A stretch of 11,680 nt of DNA from a virus (lineage: Duplodnaviria > Heunggongvirae > Uroviricota > Caudoviricetes): the IMG/VR virus record IMGVR_UViG_3300028883_000047, positions 1 through 11,680 of that record. The stretch is one strand, 5' to 3'. The position numbers were made by a program, and so were the translations under genes. Within the stretch, counting starts at the first letter, position 1. Each line of letters starts with the position of its first letter. The notes beneath the pieces were generated by a model. It was not told where the DNA came from and did not search any database. It saw only the letters and a program-made list of their open reading frames with translations. This document shows positions 377-8,520 of this stretch, one piece after another.

Positions 377-453
377 TGGTGGTAGTGGTGGGGGTCGAAC
401 CCACAAACTCACCCTTATGAGGGGTGCTGTATTACCAATTCACACTCACTACC
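377..453 (-). tRNA. tRNA with CAT anticodon (elongator Met or Ile2/lysidine type)
   Basis: Acceptor GGTAGTG/CACTACC, anticodon arm CACCC-CTCATAA-GGGTG, T arm GTGGG-TTCGACC-CCCAC, A73 and encoded CCA. No initiator features. Confidence 0.9.
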
Positions 454-2001: not shown

Positions 2002-2079
2002 TGGTACCCACCCTCGGATTCGAACCGAGATACAAGAGGACTTAAATCTCCCCGCGATTGCCAATTAGCGTAGGTGGGC
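2002..2079 (-). tRNA. tRNA-Leu(TAA), short variable loop
   Basis: GCCCACC/GGTGGGT acceptor, Leu-type D loop AATTGGCAA, anticodon loop TTTAAGT (A31-C39 mismatch), 5-nt variable loop TGTAT, A73 and CCA. Confidence 0.8.
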
Positions 2080-2444: not shown

Positions 2445-3590
2445 TTAAAACATATCGTAGTAATTGTAACTCTTGGCTGGAACTTCTTTAGCCATTACAA
2501 GATATTCATCGGTTTCATATACAATCTGACCAGCAGACTCATATGCAACCTGAGTGGAAGCAATATAAATTTCCTCATTGTCGTCGTCATCATCGTCCAT
2601 GTCAATGTCTGCAGCTCTGAGTGCTGCTTTGACCTTTGAATTTTTGCTCGTGTGACTGCCCTTAGGTTTCAGTCTGATATACGTATAGTCATACGAACCT
2701 GAGGGCTTAGCGACGATCGCCTTCTGTGCAAGCTCTCGTTTTTCTTCGGTTCCCTTTTCAACGACTTTGATGATTTCAATTTCGGAACCAATCTGTTGAC
2801 GAACGTCGATGTTCAGTTCATCAATAATTTCATCAACAGGCGATCCGAACCGTAGATGTTCTTCAACGATTGATTGAAGCATATCGAAGCTAAAGATTTT
2901 AGAACGACGCGACAAATCAACGATATCTTTGATCGTTGTAACTGATACCCCATGGTCAGCACAGTATCCTTTGATACTAGCCTCGTCCAACTTCCTGTAA
3001 CGGAAATGATAGTAGATACGACTTGGACGGTTGAGCATGAAGTCGCTGATGTCGATCTCGCTATTCTCTGTCATGATGATCAGACGCTTAGTCTTATCAA
3101 CACCATCCATCAACGACAAAAGAGAATCTTGATGCGTCCCGTCCTGGTGCTTGGACGACGTATACATCTTTCCGAATTCATCAAATACAAGACAACACTC
3201 ACCAAGCGATTGGACGAATTGGTCAAACTGATCGCCAGCGTGAGCATCACGAACGAGAATAACCGGAAGACGGAGAGAGTCGATAACACTATTTGCCAAC
3301 AAAGACATGAACAGAGTTTTACCAGTACCTTTATCACCAGTCAAAAGGATACCAGTTGACATCGGACGATCTTTGTAGGTGGTGATACACTTCTCGACAC
3401 GTTCATGTGCCGTACCGTAAATCTTTTCGGGGATCTGGAGATGATCCTTTATAACAGTGAGATAAAAACCAGAGAACTGACTAAACTGAACTGCATATAC
3501 TCTTGGCGGTAGGTAGTCGAGTGCTGTTTCATCGCTGAGCTGAACAACAGAAACGTGTGTTCCATTGATCAGAAATTTAGTCTGCATCAT
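2445..3590 (-). CDS. AAA+ family ATPase
   Basis: 381 aa. Walker A GDKGTGKT, Walker B LVFDEF, and NRPSR arginine-finger region. Confidence 0.9.
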   Translation of the reverse strand: MMQTKFLINGTHVSVVQLSDETALDYLPPRVYAVQFSQFSGFYLTVIKDHLQIPEKIYGTAHERVEKCITTYKDRPMSTGILLTGDKGTGKTLFMSLLANSVIDSLRLPVILVRDAHAGDQFDQFVQSLGECCLVFDEFGKMYTSSKHQDGTHQDSLLSLMDGVDKTKRLIIMTENSEIDISDFMLNRPSRIYYHFRYRKLDEASIKGYCADHGVSVTTIKDIVDLSRRSKIFSFDMLQSIVEEHLRFGSPVDEIIDELNIDVRQQIGSEIEIIKVVEKGTEEKRELAQKAIVAKPSGSYDYTYIRLKPKGSHTSKNSKVKAALRAADIDMDDDDDDNEEIYIASTQVAYESAGQIVYETDEYLVMAKEVPAKSYNYYDMF

Positions 3591-3615
3591 ATCGTAGTTC
3601 TCATCTTATATTGTT

Positions 3616-3749
3616 TGGCACTTCGGGCAAGAGTTTCACTTGCAGTACCCCCAGATAAAGGGGGCGGTTTAACGACTTACATTATCCCAACCCACTACTT
3701 AACCGGTATTTCGCAGGAATTTCAAACGGTCTATTCAACCTACCGAAGT
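3616..3749 (-). ncRNA. 134-nt tRNA-like RNA with an internal insertion
   Basis: 7-bp acceptor ACTTCGG/CCGAAGT, G73 and CCA. T-like arm GCAAG-TGAAACT-CTTGC, D-like arm GGT-TGAATAG-ACC, hairpin CCCCC-TTTATCT-GGGGG, and an extra CGGTTAA/TTAAACCG helix. Confidence 0.75.
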
Positions 3750-3755
3750 ATTATT

Positions 3756-3845
3756 TGGCGGAAGCGCAGGGATTCGAACCCCGGGACCCCGCGAAGGGTC
3801 GCCTGATTTCAAGTCAGGTGCTTTCGACCACTCAGCCACACTTCC
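3756..3845 (-). tRNA. tRNA-Ser(TGA)
   Basis: GGAAGTG/CGCTTCC acceptor, CCTGA-CTTGAAA-TCAGG, long variable arm, G73 and CCA. Confidence 0.95.
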
Positions 3846-3855
3846 AAATAATTTG

Positions 3856-4128
3856 TTACTCGGCTTTAGAAGGATATCCTTCATCGATAACGGCTTCGCC
3901 AGGAACAGAGGGATAGACCTCGATCGGGGCAGCGTCGTTCGCGTTTAGGTCTTCTTTACCGACTTCACCGAGTTCGTGAGCAGCTTGAGTGCGTCGCTTG
4001 TTGACGCTAGGGTCATTTGTTTCCTGACTGACAGTCAGTGCAGATGCTGCGTCGATTTGATCGAAAGCGGTTGCATTGATAGACAATGTCATCATTGCTG
4101 CCATAGCAGAAATCATTAGGGTTTTCAT
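3856..4128 (-). CDS. Hypothetical exported protein with signal peptide
   Basis: ATG 4128 with SD GGAG. MKTLMISAMAAMMTLSINATA-F looks like a Sec signal peptide; 90 aa. The ORF-track extension to 4332 runs through tRNA genes. Confidence 0.75.
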   Translation of the reverse strand: MKTLMISAMAAMMTLSINATAFDQIDAASALTVSQETNDPSVNKRRTQAAHELGEVGKEDLNANDAAPIEVYPSVPGEAVIDEGYPSKAE

Positions 4129-7866: not shown

Positions 7867-8127
7867 TTAGTTTATTGGATACAAGACGACGCACCGAGGA
7901 TGTTTTTGTTTAAACTCATCCCACTCGTCTTCTTCCATATCTGCATCTTCTGCCGACCATGATGGAGTCCATACTTCACCGCTCCAGGTCGTTTCAGCAA
8001 CGTAGATAGCATCATTATCAGCACCAGCGCATGGTGAGTATCCGTTACCTTCAGCATCCTTCTGCATGATTACATCAAGTTCAGGATCCATCTCGCTCAG
8101 CTGTTTTATCAGATCTTTTACTTTCAT
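7867..8127 (-). CDS. Conserved phage hypothetical protein
   Basis: MKVKDLIKQLSEMDPELDVIMQKDAEGNGYSP... Start moved to 8127 because the ORF-track extension to 8172 overlaps the RNase P RNA 3' end. Confidence 0.8.
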   Translation of the reverse strand: MKVKDLIKQLSEMDPELDVIMQKDAEGNGYSPCAGADNDAIYVAETTWSGEVWTPSWSAEDADMEEDEWDEFKQKHPRCVVLYPIN

Positions 8128-8136
8128 TTGTTCATC

Positions 8137-8327
8137 GTAACCGATAGCCAGGATTCTGTCAAGGGACATCATTCATCTATTTGCCACAACCCGTCCTCAT
8201 AGGGTAGAGCTTCCCTCGGACTGTTTGTGTTGCATAGGACTTTTATTTGTAGTAAAACGCCGTAGCTCCTACAACATGCTCCGCCTATGTCCTGAGCTTC
8301 CTCACCGTAGTGCGATGCCCTGGTTAC
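8137..8327 (-). ncRNA. rnpB: Minimal type-A-like RNase P RNA (catalytic domain only)
   Basis: P1 GTAACC/GGTTAC, P2 GGCATC/GATGTC, P3 CAC-TACG-GTG. P4 AGC-(U)-CAGGA/TCCTGGCT lies in GAGGAAGCTC and ACAGAATCCTGGCTATC contexts. J5/15 CAA, L15 AAACA/GGGTT, and TAGATGAATGA. Confidence 0.88.
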
Positions 8328-8331
8328 AATT

Positions 8332-8409
8332 TGGTGCCCACGGTCAGAGTCGAACTGACACTCACTACCCTCTCAAGATAGCCGCTTTGCCAGATTAGCG
8401 TACGTGGGC
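8332..8409 (-). tRNA. tRNA-Leu(GAG), short variable loop
   Basis: GCCCACG/CGTGGGC acceptor, D loop AATCTGGCAAA, CTATC-TTGAGAG-GGTAG, variable loop TGAGT, A73 and CCA. Confidence 0.87.
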
Positions 8410-8422
8410 ATAGAAATAAGTT

Positions 8423-8520
8423 GAGCGGCGCTTAATGCTACCGGATGGACTTGAACCACCAACAAGACGTTTTCACGCGTCCGTTCTACGTTGAACTACA
8501 GTGACACTCGCATACCGCTC
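8423..8520 (-). ncRNA. Degenerate tRNA-Phe(GAA)-like core enclosed by an outer helix
   Basis: Core 8436-8505 has D arm GTTC-AACGTA-GAAC, GACG-CGTGAAAA-CGTC, T arm GGTGG-TTCAAGT-CCATC and no CCA. Outer stem GAGCGG/CCGCTC. Confidence 0.6.

What the first reader, a model, noticed from the sequence alone, without database searches (positions are those of the whole stretch)
3616..3749. 134-nt CCA-ending tRNA-like RNA with a large insertion between the D arm and the anticodon-like arm
Seen: a perfect 7-bp acceptor with G73-CCA, a T-like arm with UGAAACU loop, a 4-nt variable region and a D-like arm. A 5-bp/7-nt hairpin CCCCC-UUUAUCU-GGGGG sits where the anticodon arm belongs (UAU would read Ile AUA, but C37 is atypical). 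About 60 extra nt include a CGGUUAA/UUAAACCG helix and repeated UGAAAU/CGAAAU pentamers resembling T-loop motifs. Established: the T4 tRNA cluster also encodes stable non-tRNA species of similar size and unknown function, and Y/YrlA RNAs contain tRNA-like domains. Inference: a tRNA-mimic regulatory or decoy RNA processed by RNase P.
Basis: partly seen in the sequence, partly recalled or inferred. Interest (0 to 1): 0.75.

Follow-up and report, generated by a model that had tools for sequence, protein, structure and literature searches.

The report
Orphan phage tRNA-like gene with insert
A large marine-sediment phage carries, in its tRNA gene array, one 134-base gene that folds like a tRNA but has a 62-base two-hairpin insert and an altered elbow. 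It is clearly not chance, but I found no relative, so its function stays open.

Summary
On the minus strand of 3616-3749 lies a 134-nt gene with a perfect 7-bp acceptor stem, G73-CCA, a D arm, an anticodon-type hairpin (loop UUUAUCU) and a T arm (loop UGAAACU). Sixty-two extra nt sit between the D and anticodon arms. Deleting them makes ARAGORN call tRNA-Ile(UAU). A search for this architecture finds only this site in the 75.7-kb virus record and none in 40 shuffles. It sits 6 nt after tRNA-Ser, like the other genes in the array.

It matches no Rfam family, tmRNA, Y RNA/YrlA or T4 species 1/2 RNA. It differs from all 46 ordinary tRNAs of the record: no G18G19, no T-Psi-C, C37, and G73 where Ile tRNAs have A73.

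It is an orphan. Relatives whose neighbouring ATPase is 67% and 64% identical lack it cleanly at the same site. Model and pattern searches found no homologue, so covariation could not be tested. No RNA data cover it.

Most likely (about 0.4) it is a tRNA-derived RNA that is released like a tRNA but does not decode. Rivals are a functionless relic (0.3), a derived AUA decoder (0.15) and an excisable insert (0.1). I class it as a new variant of a known kind, of moderate interest. This scan found other odd tRNA-like genes in this window, but not this design elsewhere.

The parts
3616..3749 (-). Whole 134-nt tRNA-like gene
   Evidence: Sequence and fold. It is the only hit of the architecture scan, with 0 hits in 40 shuffles.
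3743..3749 (-). Acceptor stem 5' strand ACUUCGG (element nt 1-7). U lies at -1.
   Evidence: Pairs perfectly with 3620-3626.
3728..3740 (-). D arm GGUU-GAAUA-GACC (nt 10-22). The 5-nt loop lacks G18G19.
   Evidence: All 46 ordinary tRNAs of the record have GG here.
3665..3726 (-). 62-nt insert between the D stem and the anticodon stem (nt 24-85). Its boundary is ambiguous by one G.
   Evidence: Its removal yields an ARAGORN tRNA-Ile(tat).
3689..3721 (-). Predicted hairpin I of the insert (nt 29-61), with a GA/AA internal loop
   Evidence: Pair probabilities are 0.82-0.96 in the main stem and 0.72-0.77 for the three apical pairs. This is a thermodynamic prediction only.
3666..3688 (-). Predicted hairpin II of the insert (nt 62-84), with a GA/AA internal loop. 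It contains GGGAUAAU.
   Evidence: Pair probabilities are 0.96-0.98. This is a thermodynamic prediction only.
3648..3664 (-). Anticodon-type arm CCCCC-UUUAUCU-GGGGG (nt 86-102): U33, UAU, C37, U38. A sixth pair, G85.U103, is possible.
3627..3643 (-). T arm GCAAG-UGAAACU-CUUGC (nt 107-123). It keeps G53-C61, U54 and A58 but lacks U55 and C56.
   Evidence: Of the 46 ordinary tRNAs, 45 have TTCRA here.
3616..3626 (-). Acceptor 3' strand CCGAAGU, discriminator G73 and encoded CCA (nt 124-134)
3750..3755 (-). 6-nt spacer AAUAAU between the tRNA-Ser(UGA) CCA end and the element
   Evidence: The spacing is typical of the array.
3756..3845 (-). Upstream neighbour, tRNA-Ser(UGA). In relatives it directly precedes the ATPase gene.
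2445..3590 (-). Downstream neighbour, an AAA+ ATPase gene. Its ATG lies 25 nt after the element's CCA. I used it as the synteny anchor.

Best explanation
This is a tRNA-derived gene cassette, probably of isoleucine-tRNA ancestry, that yields a 134-nt structured RNA.

Inferred steps, none shown:
1. It is transcribed with the neighbouring tRNAs.
2. RNase P cuts at A1, and the 3' end is trimmed to the encoded CCA.
3. It folds as a cloverleaf whose normal D-loop/T-loop elbow contacts are gone. Two extra hairpins project from the hinge between the D and anticodon stems.

With C37, U38 and G73 and no standard elbow, I think it does not decode. More likely it acts as a tRNA look-alike that occupies a protein which normally handles tRNA, for example a host tRNA-cleaving defence nuclease or a tRNA-processing or tRNA-modifying enzyme.

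Shown here: the gene, its helices, its placement and its uniqueness.
For: - The architecture is far beyond chance: 1 hit in the real record against 0 in 40 shuffles.
- All 21 cloverleaf pairs are intact, with only one G.U. Meanwhile both partners of the elbow contact (G18G19 and U55C56) are replaced together. That looks like a maintained but remodelled structure, not random decay.
- It sits in register in the array: a 6-nt spacer after tRNA-Ser, U at -1, and an encoded CCA as in 45 of 46 tRNAs of the record.
- The insert is predicted to form two stable hairpins, with pair probabilities mostly above 0.9.
- It lacks decoder features: C37, and G73 where the record's two tRNA-Ile(GAU) and the relatives' tRNA-Ile(UAU) have A73.
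- An AUA reader is probably already present. The tRNA(CAU) at 377-453 has the anticodon arm of tRNA-Ile(GAU) except for nt 34.
- The context points to conflict over tRNAs. The record carries a T4 Rnl1-type RNA ligase, and relatives carry RNA ligases and 2H phosphoesterases beside the array. Phage tRNA sets have been proposed to counter host anticodon nucleases (PMC10264068).
Against: - No homologue was found, so there is no covariation or conservation.
- Relatives with 67% and 64% ATPase identity lack it at the same site. Gene calls on the contig of the 90% relative leave only 27 nt upstream of its ATPase.
- I have no target or partner to name for the proposed mimicry.
- The insert's fold rests on thermodynamic prediction alone, and the whole-element z-score is modest at -2.37.
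Confidence: 0.4

Rival explanations
1. It is a functionless relic: a tRNA gene, probably tRNA-Ile(UAU)-like, that took up 62 nt and lost its elbow and identity nucleotides. It is carried along in a fast-turnover array.
For: - It is an orphan, cleanly absent at the same site in the 67% and 64% relatives.
- The region upstream of the ATPase differs in every relative examined.
- It has several departures from a working tRNA: C37, G73, no T-Psi-C, no GG.
- No family match at all.
Against: - All four stems are perfectly paired, and the CCA end and spacing are intact. Random decay should hit stems as often as loops.
- The shell has no close paralogue, so it is not a recent copy. Yet it has kept its pairing.
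Confidence: 0.3
2. It is a working AUA-decoding tRNA-Ile(UAU) with an extra domain. On this reading it is a local variant of the five-arm tRNA-Ile(UAU) of related phages.
For: - It has a UAU anticodon with U33 in a 7-nt loop, A1-U72 as in the record's Ile tRNAs, and U12-A23.
- Three relatives carry 92-94-nt tRNA-Ile(UAU) genes with an extra arm whose loop reads CAGAU(A/U)A. The insert here contains GGGAUAAU.
- No other UAU tRNA occurs in the 75.7-kb fragment.
- AUA makes up 19% of Ile codons.
- tRNAPyl shows that a 5-nt D loop and a T loop without T-Psi-C can still work in translation (PMC7609411).
Against: - It has G73 instead of A73, and C37 and U38 instead of A37 and A38.
- GAU is not displayed in a hairpin loop in the favoured fold.
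- The extra domain is at nt 26, not in the variable region.
- A tRNA(CAU) that looks like tRNA-Ile2 is already present.
- The record is only 24% complete, so a normal five-arm tRNA-Ile(UAU) may lie off the contig.
Confidence: 0.15
3. It is an interrupted tRNA gene whose 62-nt insert is cut out and the halves rejoined by proteins, which would make the insert an intron at position 26.
For: - Deleting the insert restores a 72-nt cloverleaf.
- Relatives carry tRNA-Leu-like genes with a ~34-nt hairpin inside the anticodon loop, seen in two phages whose hairpin sequences differ.
- Lak megaphage tRNAs have unexplained introns (PMC6784885).
- The record encodes an Rnl1-type RNA ligase.
Against: - No bulge-helix-bulge motif can excise nt 24-85.
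- No splicing endonuclease or RtcB was found in the fragment.
- No group I intron or small ribozyme match at E <= 10.
- No uninterrupted copy is known.
- The product would still have C37, G73 and an abnormal elbow.
Confidence: 0.1
4. It is not an RNA gene at all, but a chance structure, a plus-strand feature, or a promoter or leader of the ATPase gene.
For: A GATAAT with TG upstream lies inside the insert. The 64% relative has a promoter-like TTGAAT-17-GATAAT in the same intergenic position.
Against: - 0 architecture hits in 40 shuffles.
- The promoter scan finds no minus-strand site inside the element.
- The 67% relative has only a 28-nt spacer and no element, so the ATPase gene does not need one.
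- 59 of the record's 67 long ORFs and all its tRNA genes lie on the minus strand.
Confidence: 0.03

Closest known systems
Canonical bacterial/phage elongator tRNA (Rfam RF00005), in particular tRNA-Ile(UAU) such as that of phage T4
   Same: 7-bp acceptor stem, discriminator plus CCA, 5-bp T stem closed by G53-C61 with U54 and A58, 5-bp anticodon stem with a 7-nt loop, U33 and UAU, a 4-nt variable region, and tandem placement in a tRNA array.
   Different: A 62-nt insert at the D/anticodon junction. No G18G19, no U55C56, C37, and G73. It gets no RF00005 score even at E <= 10.
Five-arm phage tRNA-Ile(UAU) with an extra arm showing a GAU loop
   Same: UAU anticodon loop beginning UUUAU, A1-U72 in one of the three (L031; the other two begin G1·U72), an extra structured domain, and the same phage group and the same kind of array.
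   Different: Those have A73, A37, normal T and D loops, and a short extra arm in the variable region. Here the extra domain is 62 nt, sits on the other strand of the hinge (nt 26), and does not show GAU in a loop.
tRNAPyl and mammalian mitochondrial tRNA-Ser(UCN) compact-core tRNAs (review PMC7609411)
   Same: A 5-nt D loop without G18G19, a T loop without T-Psi-C (as in tRNAPyl only; per PMC7609411, mt-tRNA-Ser(UCN) keeps G18G19 and T-Psi-C), G73, and a possible 6-bp anticodon stem with a 3-nt variable loop.
   Different: Anticodon UAU instead of CUA, A1-U72 instead of G1-C72, two linker nt instead of one, and the 62-nt insert. No PylS-like gene occurs in the fragment.
Phage T4 species 1 and 2 RNAs (rnaC, rnaD)
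   Same: Similar size (139 and 119 nt) and position at the edge of a phage tRNA cluster. rnaC contains a T arm. Their function is unknown (PMC9697503).
   Different: No sequence or model similarity. As annotated, rnaC ends without CCA, has a canonical UUCGAAU T loop and has no anticodon-type arm.
Insert-bearing tRNA genes of large phages ('enigmatic introns' of Lak megaphages, PMC6784885; anticodon-loop hairpin inserts in relatives L051:2081-2199 and L031:9290-9407)
   Same: A short insert that is not a group I intron, inside a phage tRNA gene, within a large tRNA array.
   Different: Those inserts lie in the anticodon loop and leave a normal tRNA once removed. This one lies at nt 26, and its shell is abnormal even without the insert.
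Bacterial and phage Y RNAs (YrlA, Rfam RF02553)
   Same: A non-coding RNA that imitates part of a tRNA. Earlier notes of this scan place Y-like RNAs in the same window.
   Different: No Rfam match at E <= 10. The ends form a true acceptor stem with CCA, not a Ro-binding stem. An anticodon-type arm is present and the T loop is non-canonical.

Membership tests
Elongator tRNA (RF00005) | 7/5 acceptor/T stack with discriminator and CCA | tested here: met
Elongator tRNA (RF00005) | Elbow nucleotides G18G19 and U54-U55-C56 | tested here: not met
   D loop is GAAUA and T loop is UGAAACU. 46/46 and 45/46 ordinary tRNAs of the record have these nucleotides.
Elongator tRNA (RF00005) | D arm joined to the anticodon arm by one nucleotide | tested here: not met
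   63 nt lie between the two stems.
Elongator tRNA (RF00005) | Score at or above the Rfam gathering threshold, or an ARAGORN call | tested here: not met
   No RF00005 hit on 3616-3749 even at E <= 10. ARAGORN calls nothing at default settings.
tRNA-Ile(UAU) | UAU anticodon after U33 in a 7-nt loop | tested here: met
   Loop UUUAUCU.
tRNA-Ile(UAU) | Ile identity set: A73, A37, A38 (established for E. coli IleRS; my knowledge) | tested here: not met
   The element has G73, C37 and U38. The relatives' tRNA-Ile(UAU) and the record's tRNA-Ile(GAU) have A73.
Five-arm phage tRNA-Ile(UAU) | Extra hairpin in the variable region with a GAU-containing 7-nt loop | tested here: not met
   The variable region is 4 nt. 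GAUAA lies in the insert but is not in a hairpin loop in the favoured fold.
tRNAPyl-type compact core | 5-nt D loop without GG and T loop without T-Psi-C | tested here: met
   Feature list taken from PMC7609411.
tRNAPyl-type compact core | 6-bp anticodon stem with a 3-nt variable loop | tested here: inconclusive
   Only if G85.U103 forms (probability 0.92 in the model). G85 is also the last nt of the insert.
tRNAPyl-type compact core | CUA anticodon, G1:C72, and a PylS partner | tested here: not met
   The element has UAU and A1-U72. TIGR02367 has no match in the 75.7-kb fragment.
Y RNA / YrlA | Match to RF00019 or RF02553; a Ro-binding stem formed by the two ends | tested here: not met
   No hit at E <= 10. 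The ends form an acceptor stem plus CCA.
T4 species 1/2 RNA | Sequence or structure similarity to rnaC or rnaD | tested here: not met
   Model R1 finds nothing in T4 68000-76000 at E <= 10. The folds differ.
tmRNA | ARAGORN tmRNA call, G3:U70, tag reading frame | tested here: not met
   No tmRNA call. The third acceptor pair is U3-A70.
Archaeal-type spliced tRNA intron | Bulge-helix-bulge at the insert boundaries; splicing endonuclease | tested here: not met
   An exhaustive search found no such motif able to excise nt 24-85. PF01974 is absent from the fragment.
Group I intron / small self-cleaving ribozymes | Match to the Rfam models | tested here: not met
   No hit at E <= 10 over 3500-3900.

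The most novel reading that the evidence does not exclude
The element is a functional six-helix tRNA mimic: a CCA-ended cloverleaf in which two extra hairpins at the D/anticodon hinge, rich in Y-GAAA-Y T-loop-like motifs, replace the normal elbow. The phage would use it to bind or distract a tRNA-handling protein, for example a host anticodon nuclease. That would be a design of tRNA look-alike not described so far.
Probability: 0.25. Interest if true: 0.65.

Novelty: new variant of a known kind. Interest (0 to 1): 0.4.

Why it matters
Large phages carry big tRNA arrays. Their purpose is debated, with codon supply and escape from host tRNA-cutting defences both proposed. These arrays also hide non-standard tRNA-shaped genes that tRNA finders and Rfam miss.

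This element puts an extra domain at a place in the tRNA body where I found none described, and it has lost the elbow contacts that most tRNA-binding machines read. If it is made and stable, it would show that the tRNA scaffold tolerates a domain at nucleotide 26. It would also give a handle on which proteins recognise a tRNA without its elbow.

If it is a relic, it documents how fast cassettes turn over in these arrays.

Tried and rejected
**Homologue searches, all empty**
- megablast and blastn against the phage collection.
- An exact 38-mer and three loop-only patterns in viral contigs, which gave only chance hits or none.
- A covariance model built from the single sequence. I ran it over 8 other whole virus records and about 555 kb of related loci. 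It matched only ordinary tRNAs at 10-22 bits.
- A sequence-blind architecture scan of all loci. It found one analogue in shape only, L050:11350-11485, which has no sequence similarity to the element.

**Closer relatives**
- ATPase homologues reach 90% identity, but the DNA of that contig (JGI 3300040801) could not be fetched.
- The metagenome and genome scans returned nothing closer than 56%.
- An N-terminal fragment query gave 60% identity at best.
- The upstream ORF has no homologue at all.

**Expression**
- No RNA holder was listed for the longer stretch.
- For the shorter stretch, the one RNA run and the other DNA runs match only the neighbouring tRNA-Ser (3751-3849). Only the probable source run covers the element.
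- So I have no evidence on transcription either way.

**Other checks**
My Rfam check at E <= 1 shows no RNase P match there, so I did not build on it.
- I considered and rejected: a bulge-helix-bulge intron, tmRNA, YrlA and ribozymes, T4 rnaC/rnaD kinship, a promoter inside the element, a recent copy of another tRNA, and a repeat of the insert elsewhere.

Full report
**Source.** The window is the first 11,680 bases of an IMG/VR virus record of 75,680 bp. CheckV estimates it at 24% complete. The only run holding it is a marine sediment metagenome. ARAGORN finds 24 tRNA genes in the window and 46 in the record, all on the minus strand. The neighbouring 381-aa AAA+ ATPase has its best matches in jumbo phages. 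Its closest accessible relatives are 290-360-kb virus contigs. So this is a large phage with a near-complete tRNA set.

Read on the minus strand, 3749 to 3616 gives the following:
- acceptor 5' strand ACUUCGG, then UA
- D arm GGUU-GAAUA-GACC
- 63 nt between the D stem and the anticodon stem
- anticodon-type arm CCCCC-UUUAUCU-GGGGG
- variable region UACU
- T arm GCAAG-UGAAACU-CUUGC
- acceptor 3' strand CCGAAGU, then G and CCA

RNAfold recovers this cloverleaf without constraints, at -42.9 kcal/mol and z = -2.37. Deleting nt 24-85 leaves 72 nt that ARAGORN calls tRNA-Ile(tat) at default settings. I wrote a scan for the whole architecture: a 7-bp acceptor, CCA, a T arm, a 4-5-nt variable region, an anticodon arm with U33, a 20-90-nt gap, and a 4-bp D stem. 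It finds exactly this site on both strands of the record and nothing in 40 shuffled copies.

**Placement.** The gene starts 6 nt after the CCA of tRNA-Ser(UGA) at 3756-3845, which is the usual spacing in the array. U lies at -1. It ends 25 nt before the ATG of the ATPase gene.

**How it differs from the ordinary tRNAs.**
- All 46 ordinary tRNAs have GG in the D loop and 45 have TTCRA in the T loop. The element has neither, so both partners of the elbow contact are replaced. G53-C61, U54 and A58, which form the core of the T-loop fold, are kept.
- Position 37 is C.
- The discriminator is G. The record's two tRNA-Ile(GAU) and the relatives' tRNA-Ile(UAU) have A73.
- The small D loop, the T loop without T-Psi-C, G73 and a possible 6-bp anticodon stem with a 3-nt variable loop recall tRNAPyl (PMC7609411). 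However, the anticodon, the first base pair and the linker length do not fit, and no PylS-like gene lies in the fragment.

**The insert.** The thermodynamic model places a 6-nt linker (GUUUGA), a 33-nt hairpin (nt 29-61) and a 23-nt hairpin (nt 62-84). Each hairpin has a GA/AA internal loop. Y-GAAA-Y occurs three times (nt 26, 37 and 112, the last being the T loop). Dinucleotide shuffles predict 0.22 copies, with P about 0.0014, but the motif was chosen after the fact. Without homologues, none of the insert's pairs can be tested by covariation.

**It belongs to no described family.** There is no Rfam hit over 3616-3749 even at E <= 10. That covers tRNA, Y RNA/YrlA, tmRNA, group I introns and the small ribozymes. 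ARAGORN finds no tmRNA. I fetched the T4 tRNA region. As annotated there, rnaC (139 nt) has a canonical T arm and two long hairpins but no CCA end and no anticodon-type arm, and rnaD has no T arm. My model of the element finds nothing in that region.

**It is an orphan.** The closest relatives with readable DNA keep the local gene order: Gly(GCC), Arg(CCU), Arg(UCU), ORFs, Ser(UGA), ATPase, Leu(UAA). They lack the element.
- In the 67% relative, the Ser CCA is followed directly by AACAAUAUAA, the same ten bases that follow the element's CCA in the window. The element plus its spacer is therefore a clean 140-nt indel bounded by GCCAAAUAAU and GCCAAACAAU.
- The 64% relative has a 77-nt AT-rich spacer instead.
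- For the 90% relative only gene calls are available. They leave 27 nt between a 100-aa ORF and the ATPase gene.
- A covariance model built from the single sequence found no homologue in eight other whole virus records or about 555 kb of related loci.
- Three loop-only patterns and an exact 38-mer found nothing real in the viral collection.
- The shell is not a recent copy of any of 173 distinct tRNAs collected, and the insert is not repeated elsewhere.
- Other sequencing runs match only the neighbouring tRNA-Ser. No RNA data cover the element.

**Context that bears on function.**
- Insert-bearing and extra-armed tRNA genes are common in this phage group.
  - Two relatives have a tRNA-Leu-like gene with a ~34-nt hairpin in the anticodon loop.
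  - Three relatives have 92-94-nt tRNA-Ile(UAU) genes with an extra variable arm whose loop reads CAGAU(A/U)A.
  - One relative has a 136-nt CCA-ended RNA of similar layout but unrelated sequence.
- The element shares a UUUAU loop start and U12-A23 with the Ile tRNAs. It shares A1-U72 with the record's two tRNA-Ile(GAU) and one of the relatives' three tRNA-Ile(UAU). This makes Ile ancestry plausible.
- The record probably already has an AUA reader. The tRNA(CAU) at 377-453 has the anticodon arm of tRNA-Ile(GAU) except for nt 34. AUA makes up 19% of Ile codons.
- The record encodes a T4 Rnl1-type RNA ligase. No splicing endonuclease or RtcB lies in the fragment. No bulge-helix-bulge motif can remove the insert.

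**Verdict.** The gene is real and unusual. I rank four readings:
1. A tRNA-derived RNA that is released like a tRNA but does not decode, acting as a look-alike for some tRNA-handling protein (0.4). Intact stems alongside a jointly remodelled elbow argue for a maintained structure. The identity nucleotides argue against decoding. Every functional step is inferred.
2. A relic without function (0.3). This is favoured by its orphan status and the fast turnover of this intergenic site.
3. A derived AUA decoder (0.15).
4. An excisable insert (0.1).

I class it as a new variant of a known kind, namely non-canonical tRNA-like genes in large-phage tRNA arrays. I score interest at 0.4. It would rise sharply if a stable 134-nt RNA or conserved relatives were found.

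Noticed in passing
window 377-453 (-), compared with G000:42865-42941: The only tRNA(CAU) in the record has an anticodon arm (CACCC-CUCAUAA-GGGUG) identical to that of tRNA-Ile(GAU) except for nt 34, and it has A73. It is probably tRNA-Ile2 (lysidine type, reading AUA), not tRNA-Met.
   Followed up: partly
window 2002-2079 (-): A tRNA with anticodon UUA, which would read the stop codon UAA. It shares its body with the short-armed Leu tRNAs of the array. TAA is the commonest stop of the long ORFs (38 of 67), so wholesale recoding looks unlikely.
   Followed up: no
L004:4507-4598, L052:2633-2726, L031:5683-5774: Related phages carry 92-94-nt tRNA-Ile(UAU) genes (A73) with an extra hairpin in the variable region. 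Its 7-nt loop reads CAGAUAA or CAGAUUA, which imitates the GAU anticodon loop. This agrees with earlier notes of this scan on other phages.
   Followed up: partly
L051:2081-2199 and L031:9290-9407: These are 118-119-nt tRNA-Leu-like genes with a ~34-nt hairpin inserted in the anticodon loop (fold z = -4.5 and -5.6). They occur in two different phages, and the hairpin sequences differ while both keep a paired stem.
   Followed up: partly
L050:11350-11485: A 136-nt CCA-ended tRNA-like sequence in a 59% relative, just downstream of its ATPase gene. About 62 nt lie between a 7-bp D-like hairpin and an anticodon-like hairpin. It has no sequence similarity to the element here. Its 5' part resembles L031:2246-2290.
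   Followed up: partly
L003:2525-2660: A tRNA-His gene sits inside a perfect inverted repeat of about 35 nt per arm that extends the acceptor stem into a very long helix (fold -83.5 kcal/mol).
   Followed up: no
G000:24352-24960 (-): A T4 Rnl1-type RNA ligase (PF09511, 68 bits) lies in the same virus record. Relatives have RNA ligases and 2H phosphoesterases next to the tRNA array and the ATPase gene.
   Followed up: partly
L022:1661-1759; window 8436-8505 (-): The first is a 99-nt tRNA-Ser-like gene missed by ARAGORN. The second is a 70-nt Rfam tRNA hit (36 bits) in the window that ARAGORN does not call and that does not end in CCA.
   Followed up: no
My Rfam search of 8050-8420 at E <= 1 shows only the neighbouring tRNA, so that claim is not confirmed by this check.
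   Followed up: partly
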